A stretch of DNA of 64,000 bases from the IMG/VR virus record IMGVR_UViG_3300046463_000164; one strand, written 5' to 3'. The stretch is from a virus. The notes under the pieces were generated by a model, which was given only the letters and a program-made list of their open reading frames with translations, was not told where the DNA came from and ran no database searches. The position numbers and the translations under genes were made by a program. Below are positions 1-8,660 of the stretch, piece after piece (the first letter of the stretch is position 1; each line of letters begins with the position of its first letter).

Positions 1-123
1 AAAATCGTGAAGACCCGAACGGTTCCCTAGACCCATCCAAACGTTCTTACCGTCGATAACGATTCTATCGCCTTCGTTTTTCGCGTAATCGATAATAACC
101 CGCTTAAGTTGAGCCGCTTTCAT
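1..123 (-). CDS. hypothetical early protein, runs off window start (MKAAQLKRVIIDYAKNEG...)
   Basis: ATG at 123 preceded by GGAG RBS and promoter module; open to position 1. Confidence 0.7.
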   Translation of the reverse strand, partial: MKAAQLKRVIIDYAKNEGDRIVIDGKNVWMGLGNRSGLHDF

Positions 124-202
124 TTTTGTTCTCCGCTTCGTTTCGATAAAGGAATTATACCGGAAACCTAGGAAAAACAAAATTGGAATTTTCTATCAAC
201 TC

Positions 203-361
203 TCAAGCCGCGATAGAGGTAATCTTATCGTGCGGCCTAACGCGAACCGTCGCGGTTTCCCGAAAGACTCGCGCGGCGTCCGACTCGTTTAGAGAACGGA
301 CTAGCCCCGCGTAACGCCCGTTCAAGAATACTCGATAACTTTTATAAATTTGATGTATCAT
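203..361 (-). CDS. 52-aa hypothetical early protein (MIHQIYKSYRVFLNGRYAG...)
   Basis: manual translation; GGAG RBS; resembles 623-766 product. Confidence 0.65.
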   Translation of the reverse strand: MIHQIYKSYRVFLNGRYAGLVRSLNESDAARVFRETATVRVRPHDKITSIAA

Positions 362-518
362 TTTAATAGTTCTCCCTCTCAGAACAAAACCATATTCTAT
401 TAGGAGAAACCCGGCTAATTACATTTTACTATCGCATTTCAGAACCCATAGAAAATGTCTATCAGACGAGTAAAATAAAAGCCCGCGTAAGCGGGCTTTC
501 GCTTCGGGTTAATCCCGA

Positions 519-620
519 TTACCGGAAACGGAAAATGAAGGTATGAATCGCCTGATCGAGTAGGGATAGAAGCGCCCCCACAAAAAGCGTACCCGCGACC
601 CCTAGAACGATAGCTTCCAT
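519..620 (-). CDS. 33-aa membrane peptide (MEAIVLGVAGTLFVGALLSLLDQAIHTFIFRFR)
   Basis: manual translation; hydrophobic; directly downstream of 623-766. Confidence 0.55.
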   Translation of the reverse strand: MEAIVLGVAGTLFVGALLSLLDQAIHTFIFRFR

Positions 621-622
621 CT

Positions 623-766
623 TTAATCCTTTCGCGCCGTAAGGTTATCGAACTTCGTTACCGTCTTACTATTACACCACAAAAACGCGCTAATCGCTTC
701 CCGCTCGCTAGTCGCGCCAATTTTACCCTTAAAAACCCCGTCTACAAAAATCGAAAACCGCTTCAT
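623..766 (-). CDS. 47-aa hypothetical early protein (MKRFSIFVDGVFKG...)
   Basis: internal ATG of ORF track 623..811 with GGAG RBS. Confidence 0.65.
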   Translation of the reverse strand: MKRFSIFVDGVFKGKIGATSEREAISAFLWCNSKTVTKFDNLTARKD

Positions 767-927
767 TTCCGTCCGTCTCCGGTAAGACTTACTATAAAAG
801 GTTAGGTGCAACGGAAATAATTATAGTACGTTACCGAACGAAGAAGATCATACCCCTCCATTTCAGTCGGGAAAGTAATTGTTACCGACTACCGGACGTT
901 AAAAAGCCCGCTTTCGCGGGCTTTTCT

Positions 928-1239
928 TTATCTACTACCGCTAATATAAGGGAAAACGATAAAATATTTACTAACGGGATATTCCGCGTATCGTTTAACC
1001 GCGCTAGTAAGCGCTCCGCGAGTCGTAATACAACCCGTACTTTCCGCGCCAAAATTCGCCGGTCCCCCGAAAAATCTTACAGCGACCTCCGAAATTTTGT
1101 CCGGGTCTTCCGTAAAGAAAATTAGGGTAATCCCTTTCTCGCCGTTCTTTAGCGCTTCGGTTTCCGCTTCGCGTATCGCCTTAACTAACGCGGTCTTACC
1201 GTTCGGGGTTAATTCGTTTCCGTACTTATTCGTAATCAT
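928..1239 (-). CDS. hypothetical early protein, 103 aa (MITNKYG...)
   Basis: ATG at 1239 after GGAG RBS and TATAAT; terminator downstream. Confidence 0.75.
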   Translation of the reverse strand: MITNKYGNELTPNGKTALVKAIREAETEALKNGEKGITLIFFTEDPDKISEVAVRFFGGPANFGAESTGCITTRGALTSAVKRYAEYPVSKYFIVFPYISGSR

Positions 1240-1382
1240 TTTCCAACTCCGCGTTAATTCGATAAAGGAATTATACGCGAAACCGCGATAAAACAAAATA
1301 GTATTTTTCTATCAGAATTGAAGTTTCAATAGATTTTAACTATCGACAAGATAAAATAAAAGCCCGCTTTCGCGGGCTTCGT

Positions 1383-1571
1383 CTAGCGGGGTTTAGCCTT
1401 TCGCCCGCGTCTTTTCGGTCGTCCTATCCCGTTTTCGTCGCTAAACCGCGATACGAGAATAAGCGCCGCTAAATCGGGTTTCTCCGTAACGTAATCCGCG
1501 AACGAAAGCCGATTTCTAGCGTCTAGCCGATATTTCCGATAGGCTAGAAAAATTTCCGTACTAGTTTGCAT
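1383..1571 (-). CDS. hypothetical basic protein, 62 aa (MQTSTEIF...)
   Basis: ORF track; coupled to upstream small ORF. Confidence 0.65.
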   Translation of the reverse strand: MQTSTEIFLAYRKYRLDARNRLSFADYVTEKPDLAALILVSRFSDENGIGRPKRRGRKAKPR

Positions 1572-1660
1572 TATTCCTTCCAATTTTTAATATATCGGAA
1601 AGCGTCGAGCGCCGCGAAGCCTTCCGCGCGAAGCCAACGATAGTATTCTAGGCGTTTCAT
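1571..1660 (-). CDS. 29-aa peptide (MKRLEYYRWLRAEGFAALDAFRYIKNWKE)
   Basis: manual translation; GGAG RBS; TAATG overlap with next gene. Confidence 0.55.
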   Translation of the reverse strand: MKRLEYYRWLRAEGFAALDAFRYIKNWKE

Positions 1661-2023
1661 TTTCAACTCCGTTTAACTAGACTCTAGTATAACGGGTTTC
1701 TTTCCAAAAAGGGGCATACCCTTATAAACCGTATGGATATGTTCGTCTAGTCCGATAGCGCCGCCGATAGGCGAAACCCGCGTTAAGCGGGCTAGATGAG
1801 CCGCTACGGGCTTCGCTACGCGTTCCCTAGGGCTAGTAGCTCTCCCCATAACAGCCCGTTATAGGCTCATCTAGACATTTACCTATCGGCTTATAATTCT
1901 TGATAGGTAAAAGCTATTGGCTCGTGGTCTGGCGGATTAGACGACCCGCGTTTGCGACCGTTAGAGCTATTATACTTGAAATTGTAAAAAAGTAAAGCCC
2001 CGAAAGGGGCTTTTTCTAACTCC

Positions 2024-2113
2024 TTAGTAGCTAACCGGATAATAGACGAGAAAACCGATCGTAGCGAAACAAGCGATAGCGAAAGCTAATAGAACTTTCG
2101 AGCCGATAGTCAT
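2024..2113 (-). CDS. 29-aa membrane peptide (MTIGSKVLLAFAIACFATIGFLVYYPVSY)
   Basis: manual translation; single hydrophobic segment; terminator follows. Confidence 0.55.
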   Translation of the reverse strand: MTIGSKVLLAFAIACFATIGFLVYYPVSY

Positions 2114-2305
2114 TTTTTCCCGCTTCGGGAAAACCGGGTTAAACGAGCGATAATTTTCCACTTTTTCTACTCCGCGTTAATTCGATAAAGGAATTATACC
2201 CGAAAACGCGAATCTACAAAATTGTAAATTTCTATTGAAATTGTAAACCGATAGAAATTGTCTATCAAGTAGACGATAAAAAACCCGCTTACGCGGGCTT
2301 TCGGG

Positions 2306-2608
2306 TTAGCCTTCTTCGCTATCGGGTTCCCCGTAAGCGGGGAATTCTACTCCGTAGCGACTCTTAAGAATCTCCCGTATCTCGTCTAGCGCCTTTAGCG
2401 TCGCGTTAAACGCGTTCGTAGCCGCTTCTCCGTTCGCTTTAAACTCCGACGATACCGCCGAATTAAAACGGATAATACCGTTAGAGCGGTTAAAATCGAT
2501 TTCCGCGTAAACGTTTAGCGCGTTAACTAGAGTCTTAGCGAGCGCCGAAAGGTTAAGCGCCGCGCGTTCGTTATCGTTCTTAATAATCGCCGTATCCGCT
2601 GCATTCAT
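2306..2608 (-). CDS. hypothetical early protein, 100 aa
   Basis: ORF track; RBS, promoter module and terminator. Confidence 0.8.
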   Translation of the reverse strand: MNAADTAIIKNDNERAALNLSALAKTLVNALNVYAEIDFNRSNGIIRFNSAVSSEFKANGEAATNAFNATLKALDEIREILKSRYGVEFPAYGEPDSEEG

Positions 2609-2750
2609 TTTTCTACTCCGGGTTAATTTCGATATAAGGATTCTAACGGATAACGCGGGAATTCCAAAATTGTAAATTTCTATCGGTTTACAATTTCAAT
2701 AGAAATTGCCTATCAAGAGGGTAAAATAAAAGCCCCTTTCGGGGCTTCGC

Positions 2751-2951
2751 TTATTCCGCTTCGTAAGCCTTAAACGCCGTATCTACTACCCGCGTTATTT
2801 CTTCCCGTCCGAACGCTTCGAAAAGAGCCCGCGTAATCCCGGTTTCCTCTAGTAGCGAGTTTAAAAGGTTTAGCCTATCGTCTATAGAAAGGTCTTTAAT
2901 ACTAATCTCTACCTTAACCGCGCGGATAATCGAGCTATAACGGACTTCCAT
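2751..2951 (-). CDS. hypothetical early protein, 66 aa
   Basis: ORF track; coupled to upstream ORF. Confidence 0.7.
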   Translation of the reverse strand: MEVRYSSIIRAVKVEISIKDLSIDDRLNLLNSLLEETGITRALFEAFGREEITRVVDTAFKAYEAE

Positions 2952-3055
2952 TATTTTTCCCCTTTAAGGAATTTTCGGATTTTAACGCTACGCGAACCGG
3001 ACCCCGCGAGCGAGAGTAAAGCGAAAAGAACGGCGAATAAAATTAGGGCTTTCAA
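2951..3055 (-). CDS. 34-aa membrane peptide (TTG start, MKALILFAVLFALLSLAG...)
   Basis: TTG after GGAG RBS; hydrophobic N-terminus. Confidence 0.55.
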   Translation of the reverse strand: MKALILFAVLFALLSLAGSGSRSVKIRKFLKGEK

Positions 3056-3211
3056 TTTCTCACTCCGGTTTAGATTCGATATAAGGATTATAGACGAAGC
3101 CCGCGAAATTCCAAAATTGTAAATTTCTATCAATAATTATTTCCAATAGAAATTGACTATCGCACAGACGTAAAAAAGCCCGCGTTAAGCGGGCTTCGTC
3201 TATCGGGCTTA

Positions 3212-3682
3212 TTAGCCCCGCGATTCGAGATAATCTAACGCGATAATACGCGCGGTTTCCTCTTTAGGCGCGGTTTTAAGTTTCGCTACCGTTACGGAAC
3301 CGGCCGCGAAAAGCGCCGTAACCTTAATAACGTATTCCCCGTCTTTCGGTTCGGACGAAACGAGATAATTAGCGCCTAATAGGAAAGAAAACGATTCTTT
3401 ACGGGGTTCCGGTTTCTTTACTTCGGGGATTTTAGCCGCCTTTAGGTACGCTTCGATATCTTCCCGCGAGTCGTCCGAAAATTCCGCGTTATAGCTTTTA
3501 AGCCATTTCGTAATATCTTCGCTATCGTTACTTCCCGCGTCGTCGATTAATTCGCCGTTCGCGTCTTTAAAATCGATATTAAAGCGGAAATAACCGTTAT
3601 AGATAACCGCGATAACGTTATCCGAAATTTTACCCGTAAGCGTAATTTTTTCCGGGTTAAAAACAAATTTCACCGCTTTCAT
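3212..3682 (-). CDS. hypothetical early protein, 156 aa
   Basis: ORF track; RBS, promoter module, terminator. Confidence 0.8.
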   Translation of the reverse strand: MKAVKFVFNPEKITLTGKISDNVIAVIYNGYFRFNIDFKDANGELIDDAGSNDSEDITKWLKSYNAEFSDDSREDIEAYLKAAKIPEVKKPEPRKESFSFLLGANYLVSSEPKDGEYVIKVTALFAAGSVTVAKLKTAPKEETARIIALDYLESRG

Positions 3683-3842
3683 TTTCGCTACTCCGTTTAG
3701 ATTCGATATAAGGATTCTAACCTAATCCCTATAGATTCCAAAATTGTAATTTTCTATCGTCTTACAATTTCAATAGCAATTGCCTATCATATAGACGAAG
3801 AAAAACCCGCTTTCGCGGGTTCGTTTCTAAGGTAACTTCCCG

Positions 3843-4178
3843 TTACCGGTAATCGTCCCGGTTCGCTTTACGCTTAATCTCGCCTAGGAATAGTTTAACG
3901 GCAACGCTTTCCGTATCGATTTTAAGCCCGAACGCTTCGAACGCTCTAACGACTTCGGGGAATTCCCGAAAATATAACGGCGCGATAAGGTCGATACTAT
4001 CGTCGTCGTTTTCGGGGAAAATCGAAACGATATAAGCGCGCCTACCGTCGCGGGGCCGTTTCGTTGCGTCGTGAATACAATAATAGAATCCGCGTTCCGG
4101 GATAGAATAGCTTACGAGAGTAGGCGTAAAATCGTAGACTTCGCCTTTCGGGTCGAATTCGAATTTTAGCGTCTGCAT
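3843..4178 (-). CDS. hypothetical early protein, 111 aa
   Basis: ORF track; RBS, promoter module, terminator. Confidence 0.8.
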   Translation of the reverse strand: MQTLKFEFDPKGEVYDFTPTLVSYSIPERGFYYCIHDATKRPRDGRRAYIVSIFPENDDDSIDLIAPLYFREFPEVVRAFEAFGLKIDTESVAVKLFLGEIKRKANRDDYR

Positions 4179-4347
4179 TTATTAACTCCGTTTAGTTTCG
4201 ATATAAGGATTATAGACGAAGCCCGCGAAATTCCAAAATTGTAAATTTCTATCAACCCCTGAAATCAATTAACAGAGCCTATCGGATAAAGCGAACGGAC
4301 GTAAAAAAGCCCGCGTAAGCGGGCTTCTCTTTTAAAATCGGGGCTTC

Positions 4348-4854
4348 TTAATATCCCCCGCGAATCTCGATTTTAGCGGGGTTCGCGGGATTACGATAAA
4401 TCTCGTAATAAAGCGCGTCGCTAGTTCCCGCTTCTAAGCCTAAATCGTCGTCCTCCGTAATCTCGTAAAGAACGCGGATTTCTAGGCCCGCTACTTTAAC
4501 GCCGTCGATTACGAACGTTTTACGGAAAATATCGGTAATATCGTATTTCGAAAGCGAGCCGCCGATTTCGGCTTTTACGAGTTTAGTAACCGTTTCCGCT
4601 TCTTTAGCCGCGTTACGGGAAAGCTCCGTATAATAACGGTCCGAATTAGCGAAACCGATATTTTCGCGCCGTTTCTCGTTAAGGCGCTCCGCTTTACGTT
4701 CTTCGGCGCGTTCCGCTTTTTCTTTCGGCGTAAGACGGCGCGAACGGTTCGCGCTACGTTCTTCGGCTTCGCGCGCTTCTACGGCTTCGCTAGGCGAAAG
4801 CGAACGGCAAAGCACGCCATTAGGCAAACGACGAAAAACGAAAGCAGCATTCAT
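4348..4854 (-). CDS. hypothetical early protein, 168 aa (MNAAFVF...)
   Basis: ATG at 4854 after GGAG RBS; charged helical middle. Confidence 0.8.
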   Translation of the reverse strand: MNAAFVFRRLPNGVLCRSLSPSEAVEAREAEERSANRSRRLTPKEKAERAEERKAERLNEKRRENIGFANSDRYYTELSRNAAKEAETVTKLVKAEIGGSLSKYDITDIFRKTFVIDGVKVAGLEIRVLYEITEDDDLGLEAGTSDALYYEIYRNPANPAKIEIRGGY

Positions 4855-5197
4855 TTCAATCTCCAGCGAATTAGTTACGGTAAGGAAAGTATAACCGAAT
4901 CCGCGAGAATCCAAAATTGTAAATTTCTATCGGTTATACAATTTCAATAGGAATTGGCTATTTCATCGCTAGGGCGTCTAAACGGGCTTCTAACGGGTTC
5001 GCGCGGTTTAGGCTACCTATTCCCTTAACGATAGTCCGGAACCCCTCTAGCGGGCTTTAAAACGCGTCTAAACCGCTTTACGCCGTCTAGCCTAGGTCTA
5101 GCCCGCGTCGAACCGATAGGAATTGTCTATTAGAAATTGTAGACGATAGATTTTGACTATCAAGTAGGCGAAAGAAAAGCCCCTTTCGGGGCTTCGC

Positions 5198-5689
5198 TTA
5201 AACCGGTTTAAAACGGTATTTTTCGACTAGGGCGTTAAACTCGCTTTCGCTTTCGATTCGGTTTAGGTCGGATAGGAAAGGGTAATAATCGAACGCGATA
5301 GAGTAACCGGGTTTTACTTCGTCCGTTCTTTCGAAAACCTTTAGCGAGTAACCCGCGTCGAGTTCTAGACTAAAGTAATCTTCGGTAAAATCCGCGATAA
5401 AGCGGATATCGAAACCGGGAATACTTTTAACGCCTAGGCGTTTATCGCCGTTTCCGTTAATCGGGGTAGTTTCTAGCTCGTTTTCCGTAATAATAACGTA
5501 ATAATCGCCTTCGAAATTTTCCGAAAACGCCTTTTCGAATTCCGCGAAAGTCTTAACCCCGTTAAAATCTAGATTATTACGCGGGTTAGCGATAGCGTTA
5601 TTAATCGCGTCTAGCTCGGTTTCGCCCGATCCTAGCGCGTCCCCCGCGATATCGTTTAAACCGGCCGAAAAGTAACGAATCGTTTTCAA
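5198..5689 (-). CDS. hypothetical acidic early protein, 163 aa (TTG start)
   Basis: AGGAG RBS; terminator downstream. Confidence 0.8.
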   Translation of the reverse strand: MKTIRYFSAGLNDIAGDALGSGETELDAINNAIANPRNNLDFNGVKTFAEFEKAFSENFEGDYYVIITENELETTPINGNGDKRLGVKSIPGFDIRFIADFTEDYFSLELDAGYSLKVFERTDEVKPGYSIAFDYYPFLSDLNRIESESEFNALVEKYRFKPV

Positions 5690-5699
5690 AATTCTCTCC

Positions 5700-5813
5700 T
5701 TAGAACGAGAAACGGGAAGCGAGCGTAAGCCCGATAGTTTCCGCGAAAATAAGAACCGCGAGGAACTTAACCGCGAGCGAGTCGCGCGTAAGGTAATACT
5801 TAATCGATTCCAA
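5700..5813 (-). CDS. 37-aa membrane peptide (TTG start, MESIKYYLTRDSLAVKFLAVLIF...)
   Basis: manual translation; same AGGAGAGAATT-TTG leader as next gene. Confidence 0.6.
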   Translation of the reverse strand: MESIKYYLTRDSLAVKFLAVLIFAETIGLTLASRFSF

Positions 5814-5971
5814 AATTCTCTCCTTAAGGACTAGACTCTAGTATAGACGAAAACCCGAGAATTCCAAAATTGTAATTTTCTATCAATTTTGAAGTTCCAA
5901 TAGGAAAATACAATCTTGAAAACGCGTCGGTTTCCCTTATACTAGCCTTACCTTAACGAACTAACCCGGAG

Positions 5972-6166
5972 TTGAAAATGCGCGTAAACCTGATCGATGA
6001 TTTCGGTAACGAAATTCGCCCGGTTCTAGACCTTAACGCGGCTACGGTTTTCCGCTTTATCCGCTTCGCGTTAGACGGCGCGATAGAAGGGATAGCGAGC
6101 GGGGTTATTAAGGGCGGGGACGCGGACGAATCGAGTCTAAAGTATTTCGGGCTAGTCGCCGTATAA
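5972..6166 (+). CDS. hypothetical protein, the only rightward gene of the early array
   Basis: TTGAAA-17-TATACT promoter at about 5916-5943, GGAG RBS, terminator 6187-6209. Confidence 0.7.
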   Translation: MKMRVNLIDDFGNEIRPVLDLNAATVFRFIRFALDGAIEGIASGVIKGGDADESSLKYFGLVAV

Positions 6167-6281
6167 AGAAAGCCCGTTTAAAGAGAAGCCCGCGAAAGCG
6201 GGCTTTTTTACGTCCGTCGAAAACGGAATAGGAAAAGAAAAAGCCCCTTTCGGGGCTTCGGGTCTATAACGCGCGGGGTTT

Positions 6282-6626
6282 TTACTTATCCGCCTTAACT
6301 TCGAACCGTTCGCCGGTTTCGCTATTCGCTTCGAGCTTTTCGGCTTCGTCCTTCGCTTCCCGATACGAAAGAAGCGAAATAACCTTTTCGCCCGTCGCGT
6401 AGTTAATAACCGAATAAGTCGATTCTTCCGGACGCTCCGCGAAAACCGCGTTAAGGTTCTTTACTTCGCGAGCGATAGCGAGTAGCTCGTTAAACTCGTA
6501 ATAGCCCGTCATTTTTACCGCGTAGCCTTCGTTATCCCGGACTAGCTCGGTATCGCCCGAAAGCGTACCGTCGAACGAAAGGTTAGGGCGGGCGTTAAGG
6601 ATATCTTGAACCGTGAAAGTTGCCAT
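6282..6626 (-). CDS. hypothetical early protein, 114 aa
   Basis: ORF track; RBS, promoter module, terminator. Confidence 0.8.
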   Translation of the reverse strand: MATFTVQDILNARPNLSFDGTLSGDTELVRDNEGYAVKMTGYYEFNELLAIAREVKNLNAVFAERPEESTYSVINYATGEKVISLLSYREAKDEAEKLEANSETGERFEVKADK

Positions 6627-6976
6627 TTTTCTCTACTCCGTTTGCGTTTCGTTAAAGTAAGGCTAGTTTACCCGATAAGCGCCAATTTCCCCTAGGAATA
6701 TCCGATTGTAATTTTCTATCAACTCTGAATATCAATAGAGAATTGCTATTTCAGCGCTAACCTAGCTAGATGAGCCGCTATGAGGTTTCGTCGCGTTCCG
6801 ATAGTCGCCTATAGCCTAGAGCCTAAAAGCCCGCTAGGGAACGTATAGGAAAGCCGGTTCTCTCCTATAGCGTAATCGCCCTATAGCCTAGAAAGCCCCG
6901 ATTCTCTCCCGTCTAGCTCCGTGCCGGTGGCCCGCGCGTATAGAGCCTATCTCCCTAGAGAAGTAAAGAACAATTA

Positions 6977-7235
6977 GCCTAGTAGTATTGGTACCTGGAT
7001 AAGCTCCCCCTTATACTACGTCTTGAAGGGAAAGTCTAGTCCAATATCACCCCCAACTCCAAGCGAGTCCGGAACGCCTTACCGGAGCTACGCTACCTAT
7101 AAGGGAAAACTATCGAAAAATGCGTGTGATAGTCCGTTGTAGCCTAGTAGTATTGGTACCTGGCTAAACCTAGGATAGACTAAAATTATCAAAATATGTG
7201 TGTGATAGTCGGTTGTAGCCTAGTAGTATTGGTAC
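6977..7235 (+). repeat. three direct copies of GCCTAGTAGTATTGGTAC
   Basis: starts at 6977, 7142, 7218; the last two share a longer upstream context (GTGTGATAGTC.GTTGTA). Confidence 0.9.
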
Positions 7236-8453
7236 TAGTGTATATAATACTATAGTAGCGGAGCCTAGTACCAATGGTTCTACCCTATAGAAATTGACTA
7301 TGAACGGTGTAAATGTGATAGATCACTCAACTATCCCTAGGGGAGAATTGATATGGAAACACTATTGACTATCAACTTCAAGCCACGATAGGAATTGTCT
7401 ATGGATAGTCCTAGCCTATTACCACAACTTTCCGAGAGCCTACGGCAATGTACTATCGATCCCGCCTGCCAATAGTCTTTCCCTATCCATAGCCCTAGCC
7501 TATCCAGGGTACCAACTCCGATAGGAAATATCAATCGATCCAGCTATAGGGGAAATCTATTGACTCATATTAGCTCTAGGGAAAACCTATCAATTTTCCG
7601 AACCTGTGAATTCCGAAAAAGTAAAGACATTTCGAAAATATTTCAATATAACCGAAAGCCGTAGAAAACGCCGATCAAAATCTAGGCGTCTACGTGAGCC
7701 GCTACGGGCTTTCTAGGGTGGGTCTAAGCTAGGATGGCGTGAGCTTCGTAGAATCCTCATAGGCTGAGTTTGGTATTTCTAGCCCCGTATAGCCTCTAGG
7801 TTCACATTCTCTCGTCTATAGGCTATAGGGATAGCGCCGCTAGGCGAGAAAGCCCGTAGCGAGCCTATACGAAAGCCTAGACACATTATTAAGCGGGACT
7901 ATCGACTATGCATATCGATAGGTAAATTTATCTTTACTTTTATAGAATTGAGGGCATCGATGTGTAACCCTATAGAGCGGAAGGTTATTCGAAAGTCTAG
8001 TTACATTTCTCTATAGGGATAGGCAAGTCGATAGGAAAATACAATTAGACTTTCTTTGCTAGTCGTGATCGAGAGATAGGTTTGGGCTATGGGCTGGACG
8101 ATGGTGATAGGAAAATACAACTAGACGGAATGTGAAAAGTCGTATAGGGGAAATTGCGGGTTCCCGGCGGTGGTGGGGCGTAGCTCACACAGTCTTATAC
8201 AAAGTTGATTTCAAAAATTGTCCACACCACGGTATCCAGAAAAATATTGAGCCTGGGGGGGGTATTGTCAGAAAAATGTGAGGGTGGGGTATTGGAAATA
8301 AAAAATGTGGGGTGGTGGGCTAGATATGTTTCCAACTCTTTCTTGTCACTATGGCCCTAATGTTGGGTACGGTGACATTAAACCTTTTCGCCAAATCATT
8401 CTTATGGGTGCCTGCGGCAAACTCTTGCCTTATCTCTAAAACAATCTCCGCAG

Positions 8454-8660
8454 TCAGTTTCGACATCCCATGTCCTTCCCCTTTGCTTTGTCGTATATCT
8501 TCTGCTCATACTTGTGCTTTAGGATAGCGAGCTCAGTCTTGGCAGCCTTCTGATTCTCATACTTGTTATTCCTAGCAATCGTCACCGCATCGTTATACCG
8601 GTTCTCGGCCTCTAGGATTATTTGTTGACAAGCTTTTACCCGTTCGCTATTTGTACTCAT
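8454..8660 (-). CDS. hypothetical protein
   Basis: ORF track; last gene of the leftward run. Confidence 0.6.
   Translation of the reverse strand: MSTNSERVKACQQIILEAENRYNDAVTIARNNKYENQKAAKTELAILKHKYEQKIYDKAKGKDMGCRN

What the first reader, a model, noticed from the sequence alone, without database searches (positions are those of the whole stretch)
182..6749. Every early gene cassette carries paired ATAG-N7-CTAT (LysR/OxyR-like) boxes abutting the -35
Seen: about 12 copies of terminator, ATAG-N7-CTAT, 15-16 bp, ATAG-N7-CAAT, weak -35 (TTGGAA/TTGTAG), -10 and RBS. The copy at 5869-5914 has CAAT-type ends on both sides and sits between divergent promoters. Later promoters (TTTACT-17-TATAAT) lack these boxes. 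Established: T-N11-A palindromes are LysR-type operators, ATAG-N7-CTAT is the OxyR half-site consensus, and phage Mu mom is OxyR-controlled. The spacer here differs from the N7 of the oxidised-OxyR site. Inference: a host LysR regulator (possibly OxyR) or a phage protein gates or boosts the whole earliest gene class, potentially tying infection to host redox state.
Basis: partly seen in the sequence, partly recalled or inferred. Interest (0 to 1): 0.8.

Follow-up and report, generated by a model that had tools for sequence, protein, structure and literature searches.

The report
LysR-style operator pairs on phage early promoters
An uncultured T4-like phage puts two matched 15-base binding boxes at fixed positions upstream of about ten of its earliest promoters. 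The layout is that of a LysR/OxyR-type regulator bound in its stretched form, but the protein that binds is still unknown.

Summary
ATAG-N7-CTAT occurs 19 times in the window against 0.2-1.2 expected, and every copy lies between 448 and 8090.

Ten full cassettes share one plan. It runs terminator, ATAG-N7-CTAT, 15-16 bp, ATAG-N7-CAAT, then T plus TTGGAA-like, a spacer of 15-16, TATAAT-like, a conserved leader, GGAG and the start codon. One pair serves two divergent promoters. "Every cassette" overstates it, because at least three promoters in the block lack the boxes.

The boxes are islands of conservation. They also keep TG/CA in a block otherwise purged of it. They sit 22-23 nt from the -10 hexamer, or 34 nt in one copy, which is one extra helical turn.

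An unrelated siphovirus contig has six promoters with the same pair exactly 23 nt from a -10 and no -35 hexamer. The sister T4-like phage conserves an orphan array of the boxes.

Best reading: operator pairs for a dimer-of-dimers regulator acting positively at about -43 and -74. The four half-sites lie at 0, 11, 30-31 and 41-42 bp, the register described for reduced OxyR. A host LysR-type protein is the leading candidate but is unproven, because the host is unknown. Another note of this scan (e1-5845723) reports similar boxes in other phages.

The parts
6665..6749 (-). Cassette before the start codon at 6626. Distal box 6735-6749, proximal box 6705-6719, no -35 hexamer, -10 TAAACT at 6665-6670. 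The proximal box lies 34 nt from the -10, which is 23 plus 11.
5840..5943 (.). Shared box pair 5869-5883 and 5900-5914 between divergent promoters. Minus strand: TTGGAA 5862-5867 and TATACT 5840-5845. Plus strand: TTGAAA 5916-5921 and TATACT 5938-5943. The half-site next to each promoter is CAAT.
5116..5160 (-). Orphan pair behind a terminator: boxes 5146-5160 and 5116-5130, 15 bp apart, with no recognisable promoter downstream.
4888..4961 (-). Cassette before the start at 4854. Distal box 4947-4961, proximal box 4916-4930, TTGGAT 4909-4914, TATACT 4888-4893.
4209..4282 (-). Cassette before the start at 4178. Degenerate distal box 4268-4282 (ATAG-N7-TAAT), proximal box 4238-4252, TTGGAA 4231-4236, TATAAT 4209-4214.
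3714..3787 (-). Cassette before the start at 3682. Distal box 3773-3787, proximal box 3743-3757, TTGGAA 3736-3741, TAGAAT 3714-3719.
3087..3160 (-). Cassette before the TTG start at 3055. Distal box 3146-3160, proximal box 3116-3130, TTGGAA 3109-3114, TATAAT 3087-3092.
2640..2713 (-). Cassette before the start at 2608. Distal box 2699-2713, proximal box 2669-2683, TTGGAA 2662-2667, TAGAAT 2640-2645.
2193..2265 (-). Cassette before the GTG start at 2161. Distal box 2251-2265, proximal box 2221-2235, TTGTAG 2214-2219, TATAAT 2193-2198. Its 15-bp spacer is the exact reverse complement of the spacer at 2684-2698.
1270..1343 (-). Cassette before the start at 1239. Distal box 1329-1343, proximal box 1298-1312 (here CTAT-type), TTGTTT 1291-1296, TATAAT 1270-1275.
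418..462 (-). Degenerate cassette before the start at 361. Distal box 448-462; proximal box 418-432 reads ATAG-N7-TAAT. The distance to the -10 is irregular.
154..228 (-). Cassette before the start at 123. Degenerate distal box 213-228 (one extra base), proximal box 182-196, TTGTTT 175-180, TATAAT 154-159.
7287..8126 (.). Gene-free array of at least nine boxes with no cassette promoter. It includes overlapping pairs 17 bp apart (7388/7405 and 7472/7489). The sister phage has a matching array at about 166.4-167.6 kb of its record.

Best explanation
Each module is a pair of operators for one DNA-binding protein that binds as two dimers, a dimer of dimers.

Geometry. Each dimer reads ATAG and CTAT (or CAAT) in two adjacent major grooves. 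The two dimers sit three helical turns apart on one face of the helix, centred near -74 and -43. The proximal site touches the -35 region.

Proposed action. From there the complex helps the host sigma-70-type RNA polymerase start at promoters whose -35 is weak or absent. The earliest gene class of this T4-like phage is thereby gated by that protein.

Likely binder. The layout is that of a LysR-type regulator in its extended conformation. The tetranucleotides are those of OxyR, and the register is the one described for reduced OxyR. The most likely binder is therefore a host LysR-type protein present in the uninfected cell.

Shown: the anatomy, the conservation and the helical register.
Inferred: that a protein binds, that it acts positively, and that it is host-encoded.
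For: Enrichment and confinement to the early block.

Invariant half-sites: 11-12 of 12 copies at each end position. Mean pairwise identity is 0.69 and 0.85 for the two boxes, against 0.42 for the inter-box spacer, 0.43 for the promoter spacer and 0.33 for the upstream flank.

Spacer sequence is free and even inverted, while its length stays 15-16 bp.

Distance from proximal box to -10 is 22-23 nt in nine cassettes and 34 nt in one, so the helical face is kept.

One pair serves two divergent promoters symmetrically.

The block is purged of TG/CA. Modules keep 9.98 per 100 bp, against 1.56 in ORFs and 13.3 in the rest of the window. This includes the proximal CAAT, where CTAT would have avoided the dinucleotide.

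The unrelated siphovirus contig G004 has six promoters with the same pair, N16 between the boxes, and exactly 23 nt to a TAnnAT hexamer with no -35. Its relative L473 keeps the boxes where the neighbouring proteins are only 57-60% identical.

No protein similarity was found between the window and G004. No LysR-type HTH or HU-like gene was found in the complete sister genome. Both results favour a host factor.

Literature: OxyR consensus PMC5720770; reduced OxyR binding mode PMC2225504; symmetric regulatory site plus weaker activation site next to the -35, PMC11495319.
Against: No binding data exist and the host is unknown.

The distal site is centred near -74, not at the usual -65 of LysR-type regulators.

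The inner bases are nCAATTn and AAAWTTA, not the OxyR nTnnnAn pattern.

The sister phage G002 places a different dyad, TAGGG-N5-CCCTA, at about -42 of its early promoters. It still conserves a gene-free array of ATAG boxes, which could point to a lineage-specific phage protein.

The window promoters (TTGGAA-16-TATAAT) could fire without help, so the boxes could equally be shut-off operators.

Perfect paired modules are not enriched in 391 Gammaproteobacteria genomes: 1 match against 5 in the control pattern. This is weak evidence, since natural sites are degenerate.

According to other notes of this scan, which I did not test, the virion DNA carries hydroxymethyluracil and bulky groups at TG. 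Such DNA might not fit a host protein.
Confidence: 0.5

Rival explanations
1. The boxes bind a phage-encoded protein, either carried in the virion or made early. It could be an activator. It could also be a repressor that shuts the early class off once it accumulates. The orphan array would then act as its loading site or sink.
For: The sister phage G002 conserves a gene-free array of 12 ATAG-N7-CTAT boxes with the same sub-pattern of box, N15, box, N2, box. G002's early promoters carry a different dyad at the same position, as expected if phage and operator co-evolve. A 48-residue helix-turn-helix ORF (8320-8466) lies beside the array and is not syntenic in G002.
Against: No protein is shared between the window and the siphovirus G004, which uses the same promoter build. 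An activator made by the phage cannot act at time zero unless it is injected. The early proteins match no DNA-binding family. The divergently transcribed 62-residue product folds as one long helix. Only 64 kb of the genome could be read, so a candidate elsewhere is not excluded.
Confidence: 0.27
2. No dedicated protein binds. The A/T-rich boxes act as UP-like elements or bent DNA that the polymerase alpha subunits contact. This resembles the A/T-rich zone upstream of T4 early promoters and of PeSL cassettes.
For: The box interiors are A/T-rich (AAATTT, CAATTT) and the proximal box spans about -50 to -36. The PeSL papers describe an AT-rich region upstream of the -35 (PMC4122927).
Against: The invariant positions are the G- and C-containing ends ATAG and CTAT, not the A/T interior. 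In the orphan arrays the interiors are not A/T-rich, yet the ends persist. A second copy at -74, and the dyad symmetry, are not UP-element features. The G004 promoters lack a -35 altogether.
Confidence: 0.1
3. The similarity only reflects recent copying. The cassettes are PeSL-type recombination modules that spread by homologous exchange, and the boxes have no function of their own.
For: The architecture of terminator, promoter, SD and start flanking ORFan genes in a T4-like phage is that of PeSLs (PMC2839356, PMC4122927). The spacer inversion shows recombination within the module.
Against: Conservation is patchy, not uniform: boxes 0.69-0.85 against spacers 0.42-0.43. The same boxes at the same distance occur in an unrelated phage with unrelated flanks. 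TG/CA is retained in the boxes against the purge of the block.
Confidence: 0.06

Closest known systems
OxyR operators of Proteobacteria (ATAG-N7-CTAT-N7-ATAG-N7-CTAT), including the extended binding mode of reduced OxyR
   Same: Four ATAG/CTAT-type elements, with 15-16 of 16 bases matching in most modules. The site ends at the -35. The half-sites fall on turns 0, 1, 3 and 4, as described for reduced OxyR (PMC5720770, PMC2225504).
   Different: The gap between dyads is N15-16, not N7. The inner bases do not follow nTnnnAn. There are ten or more copies on a lytic phage. The host and the binder are unknown.
LysR-type regulator sites: a symmetric regulatory site plus weaker activation sites (for example BenM, ATAC-N7-GTAT)
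   Same: The T-N11-A dyad format, a symmetric distal site, a one-base-off proximal site next to the -35, and a dimer-of-dimers geometry (PMC11495319).
   Different: The distal site lies near -74 rather than -65. The dyad centres are 30-31 bp apart rather than about 21. No divergent regulator gene is present.
PeSL cassettes of T4-like phages (promoter-early stem-loop)
   Same: A stem-loop terminator directly upstream of a sigma-70-like early promoter, then SD and start codon. The cassettes are repeated around ORFan genes in a variable region (PMC2839356, PMC4122927).
   Different: Described PeSLs have only an AT-rich zone upstream of the -35. Here that zone is replaced by two defined dyad boxes.
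Phage Mu mom and E. coli agn43 OxyR/Dam switches
   Same: A phage promoter region carrying OxyR-type sites that are bound irrespective of oxidation (my own knowledge; also recalled in notes of this scan).
   Different: Those sites contain GATC and act by repression. No GATC lies in any module here, and the position suggests activation.
Cyanobacterial NdhR/CcmR sites (ATAG-N8-CTAT)
   Same: The same tetranucleotides, read by another LysR-type regulator (PMC13249358).
   Different: The spacing is N8 against N7. NdhR is a repressor. Nothing shows that the host is a cyanobacterium.
SPO1 TF1, an HU-like protein that prefers hydroxymethyluracil DNA and binds early promoters (my own knowledge)
   Same: A phage with modified thymine whose early promoter region carries specific protein-binding sites.
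   Different: No HU/IHF-type gene was found in the complete sister genome. TF1 sites are not short dyads.

Membership tests
OxyR operator | Four ATAG/CTAT-type tetranucleotide elements | tested here: met
   Ends are invariant in 11-12 of 12 copies. The proximal right half is CAAT. Consensus taken from PMC5720770.
OxyR operator | Dyads separated by N7, giving four adjacent major grooves (oxidised, activating form) | tested here: not met
   The spacer is 15 or 16 bp in all modules. No N7 pair occurs in the window.
OxyR operator | Extended register: two pairs of adjacent grooves one helical turn apart (reduced form) | tested here: met
   Half-site centres lie at 0, 11, 30-31 and 41-42 bp. Description from PMC2225504.
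OxyR operator | Inner pattern nTnnnAn within each dyad | tested here: not met
   The distal interior is nCAATTn and the proximal is AAAWTTA. The nTnnnAn pattern itself is from my own knowledge.
OxyR operator | Bound by OxyR of the host | not testable with these tools
   The host is unknown. Pattern scans of metagenomes and genomes gave only chance hits.
LysR-type regulator site pair | T-N11-A dyads: a symmetric anchor site plus a less symmetric site beside the -35 | tested here: met
   PMC11495319.
LysR-type regulator site pair | Anchor site near -65, about two turns from the active proximal site | tested here: not met
   The centres lie near -74 and -43, three turns apart.
LysR-type regulator site pair | A LysR-type gene available, often divergent from the target | tested here: inconclusive
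   No PF00126 match over the cut-off in sister genome G002, G004 or G001. A host gene cannot be examined.
PeSL cassette | Terminator stem-loop, sigma-70-like early promoter, SD and start, repeated around variable small genes of a T4-like phage | tested here: met
   the ORFs have no family matches; PMC4122927.
UP element | A/T-rich tract from -40 to -60 without a specific dyad; conservation lies in the A/T runs | tested here: not met
   Conservation lies in the ATAG/CTAT ends. A second copy sits at -74, and the arrays have non-A/T interiors.
Dam/OxyR switch (mom, agn43 type) | GATC sites inside the operator | tested here: not met
   None of the 10 GATC sites in 1-8200 lies in a module.

The most novel reading that the evidence does not exclude
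The boxes are almost the only places in the purged early block where TG survives. Related phages hypermodify thymine at TG.

In virion DNA the operators would therefore carry bulky modified thymines at fixed positions. The regulator, whether a host LysR-type protein or a phage protein, could tell fully modified parental DNA from freshly replicated DNA. Early promoters would then fire only on the infecting genome.

The conserved orphan array would act as a sponge for the same regulator. If the regulator is OxyR, this would blunt the host peroxide response as phage DNA accumulates.
Probability: 0.08. Interest if true: 0.85.

Novelty: new variant of a known kind. Interest (0 to 1): 0.57.

Why it matters
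T4-like early promoters are thought to rely on polymerase alone, plus injected modifiers. Here a whole early gene class carries defined regulator sites in a LysR/OxyR-like stretched register. The same build is found on an unrelated phage.

If a host regulator binds, infection onset would be wired to a host physiological sensor. If a phage protein binds, it is an unknown early-class regulator.

The modules are short, repeated and easy to test, and they offer ready-made parts for promoter studies. Their retention of TG/CA inside a purged block also marks which bases are needed.

Tried and rejected
- Closely similar DNA in cultured phages: none found.
- Exact cassette pattern in IMG/VR: none found.
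- Pattern scans of metagenome contigs and of GTDB genomes (truncated): only single chance hits in AT-rich DNA, so no host clue.
- Perfect paired modules in 391 Gammaproteobacteria: 1 match against 5 in the control pattern, so no enrichment.
- G001, the closest relative with 90% portal identity: its record lacks the early block.
- NADAR-anchored search for more relatives: only unrelated phages.
The rest of the early block could therefore not be read.
- The divergently transcribed 62-residue gene as a candidate regulator: no look-alikes and a single-helix model.
- Tandem-promoter reading of the boxes (TTGATA or TTGAAA with TACAAT): rejected. The spacer would mostly be 19 bp, and the conserved bases are the dyad ends.
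- IHF, Fis, Lrp, TyrR and NtcA consensus compared by eye from memory: spacing or key bases do not fit.
- G005 and G006 hits: iteron regions of other phages, not the same system.
Full report
**Context**

The window is part of an uncultured, distant T4-like myovirus.
- It encodes baseplate wedge, tail sheath, portal, large terminase, SbcCD-like nuclease and RNA ligase homologues, plus 18 tRNA genes.
- The best portal identity to cultured phages is 45%.
- No whole genome is held.

Positions 1-6750 carry small minus-strand ORFs with no Pfam or PHROG match. Each is bracketed by an intrinsic terminator and a promoter. Positions 6750-8150 have no convincing ORF.

**The observation**

ATAG-N7-CTAT occurs 19 times against 1.2 expected, and every copy lies at 448-8090. 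ATAG-N7-CAAT occurs 17 times against 2.8 expected, 12 of them below 8100. A Markov model of the first 8200 bases alone expects 0.20 and 0.12. It produced no paired module in 1000 simulations.

Alignment of the regions upstream of twelve start codons shows one plan:
- terminator
- about ten bases
- ATAG-N7-CTAT
- 15-16 bp
- ATAG-N7-CAAT
- one T
- TTGGAA-like hexamer
- 15-16 bp
- TATAAT-like hexamer
- a conserved leader
- GGAG
- start codon

The element table lists ten full cassettes. The pair at 5869-5914 lies between divergent promoters, with the CAAT-type half-site next to each promoter.

The promoters before the starts at 766, 1660 and 1849 lack the boxes. The cassette at 418-462 is degenerate, the pair at 5116-5160 has no promoter, and 7287-8126 holds an orphan array.

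**Evidence that the boxes themselves are selected**

- The eight end positions are the same in 11-12 of 12 copies.
- Mean pairwise identity is 0.69 for the distal box and 0.85 for the proximal box. It is 0.42 in the inter-box spacer, 0.43 in the promoter spacer and 0.33 in the upstream flank.
- The spacer keeps its length but not its sequence. In one cassette it is the exact reverse complement of another, as note e1-5669968 of this scan also says.
- The distance from the proximal box to the -10 hexamer is 22-23 nt in nine cassettes. It is 34 nt in the tenth, one extra helical turn.
- The whole block up to about 8150 is almost free of TG and CA. Odds ratios there are 0.09-0.35, with CG at 2.0-2.3, while the rest of the window is near 1.
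- The early proteins accordingly almost lack Cys, His, Met, Gln and Trp.
- The modules hold 9.98 TG/CA per 100 bp, against 1.56 in the ORFs and 13.3 in the rest of the window.
- The proximal half-site is CAAT, where CTAT would have avoided the dinucleotide. That base is therefore needed.

**Related sequences**

A degenerate pattern search of IMG/VR found one informative contig among chance hits. G004 is a 39-kb siphovirus record with terminal repeats.
- It has six minus-strand promoters built as ATAG-N7-CTAT, N16, ATAG-N7-CAAT, exactly 23 nt, TAnnAT, then SD and start.
- None of these promoters has a -35 hexamer.
- A relative, L473, keeps the boxes where the neighbouring proteins are only 57-60% identical.
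- G004 is not purged of TG/CA, so the boxes work as sequence and not only as carriers of modified bases.
- G004 shares no detectable protein with the window.

The complete sister T4-like genome G002 has 79% portal identity and a syntenic early block.
- Its purge is milder and strand-biased.
- Its early promoters carry a different dyad, TAGGG-N5-CCCTA, about 20 nt upstream of a TATACT core.
- Thirteen of its 15 ATAG-N7-CTAT boxes lie in that region, and 12 form a gene-free array. The array has the same unit as the window's array: box, N15, box, N2, box.
- One box at the block boundary aligns directly between the two phages.

**Mechanism**

The half-sites lie at 0, 11, 30-31 and 41-42 bp. These are helical turns 0, 1, 3 and 4 on one face. 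The dyad centres fall near -74 and -43.

This fits a protein that binds as two dimers and touches polymerase from a position next to the -35. Three observations point to a positive role rather than simple occlusion:
- the weak or missing -35;
- the exact spacing to the -10;
- the variant shifted by one full turn.

The format matches LysR-type regulators: a T-N11-A dyad, a symmetric distal site, and a slightly asymmetric proximal site beside the -35 (PMC11495319). The tetranucleotides are those of the OxyR consensus (PMC5720770). The N15-16 gap excludes the oxidised register of four adjacent grooves. It does match the description of reduced OxyR, which contacts two pairs of adjacent grooves one turn apart (PMC2225504).

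A host protein is favoured for two reasons. Unrelated phages use the same build without sharing proteins. The complete sister genome encodes neither a LysR-type HTH nor an HU-like protein.

Several points count against naming OxyR:
- the inner bases differ from the OxyR pattern;
- the anchor site is one turn further out than usual;
- the host is unknown;
- perfect modules are not enriched in 391 Gammaproteobacteria;
- the lineage-conserved orphan array and the different dyad in the sister phage fit a phage-encoded factor about as well.

My estimates:
- About 0.8 that the boxes are real protein operators.
- About 0.5 for the full statement: a positive-acting, dimer-of-dimers, probably host LysR-type factor.
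- About 0.3-0.35 that the factor is OxyR itself or a close functional analogue.

**Relation to the base modification**

Other notes of this scan (e1-5662094, e1-5669964, e1-5669996) say this phage replaces thymine by hydroxymethyluracil and adds a bulky group. They say the TG/CA purge keeps early genes free of it. I verified the purge. I also verified from the literature that thymine hypermodification falls mainly on TG (PMC13458397). I did not verify the enzymes, which lie outside the window.

If those notes are right, the operators carry modified thymines in virion DNA. Because G004 uses the same boxes without a purge, I treat this as tolerated rather than required.

**Comparison with known systems**

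- The cassettes are PeSL-type modules (PMC2839356, PMC4122927) with an added operator pair.
- They are not Dam/OxyR switches of the mom type, because no GATC lies in any module.
- They are not UP elements, because the conserved bases are the G- and C-containing ends.
- Note e1-5845723 of this scan reports similar stretched OxyR-like boxes on promoters of other phages. That agrees with this report but is not independent proof.

**Limits**

No binding or expression test is possible with these tools.

Noticed in passing
window 1-8150: Extreme TG/CA depletion (odds 0.09-0.35) and CG excess (2.0-2.3), with a sharp return to normal at about 8150-8200. The ORF bodies have long stretches with no TG or CA, and the proteins almost lack C, H, M, Q and W. 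This is the subject of another finding of this scan.
   Followed up: partly
G002 (L091-L092), record 156-166 kb: In the sister phage the purge is milder and strand-biased. TG on the template strand of the leftward genes is at 0.35-0.43, while CA is at 0.75-0.78. This suggests the constraint acts on the transcribed template strand.
   Followed up: no
window 1730-1996, minus strand: A TTTACT-16-TATAAT promoter (1996-1969) is followed by about 240 nt that fold well as RNA (z = -2.8). A long inverted repeat (CTAGATGAGCC...) has related 24-nt copies at 6766-6789 and 7690-7713. The ORF called here (1673-1849) is probably spurious, so this is a candidate small structured RNA.
   Followed up: partly
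window 6975-7292: Four copies of an approximately 20-31-nt repeat (AGCCTAGTAGTATTGGTAC...), two of them inside a 54-nt direct repeat. They lie in the gene-free stretch next to the box array. Function unknown.
   Followed up: no
window 7287-8126; G002 record about 166,390-167,615: Orphan arrays of ATAG-N7-CTAT boxes with a repeating unit of box, N15, box, N2, box. There are two inverted units in the window and two direct units in G002. Their interiors are not A/T-rich.
   Followed up: partly
window 8075-8310: The block boundary is about 75% identical to G002. It includes a box, a GATAGGAAAATACAAC element and a small GC hairpin, followed by G-runs in a 27-nt tandem repeat (8255-8308). It may be a conserved boundary element or promoter.
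   Followed up: partly
window 8320-8466, minus strand: A 48-residue helix-turn-helix ORF with weak Mor-like and endonuclease-HTH matches lies directly beside the array. Its only G002 match is 45% identical and lies elsewhere in that genome. It is a weak candidate for a phage-encoded DNA binder.
   Followed up: partly
window cassettes, for example 2612-2640 and 3062-3087: The transcribed leader is conserved (CCTT(T/A)ATCGAA, then TAA, then GGAG), and every Shine-Dalgarno is GGAG at the same distance from the start. This may be a shared post-transcriptional control site.
   Followed up: no
window 1676-1690 and 5830-5845; G002 162.9-166.1 kb: A second promoter core, TATACTAGAGTCTAG, is shared with seven G002 early promoters. 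In G002 it is usually preceded by a TAGGG-N5-CCCTA dyad about 20 nt upstream and has no -35.
   Followed up: partly
window 13741, 18758, 25120/25304, 58332, 60306/60324: Box-less promoters of the form TTTACT, N16-18, TATAAT occur outside the early block. They include two back-to-back divergent pairs, one beside RNase H and one inside the tRNA cluster.
   Followed up: no
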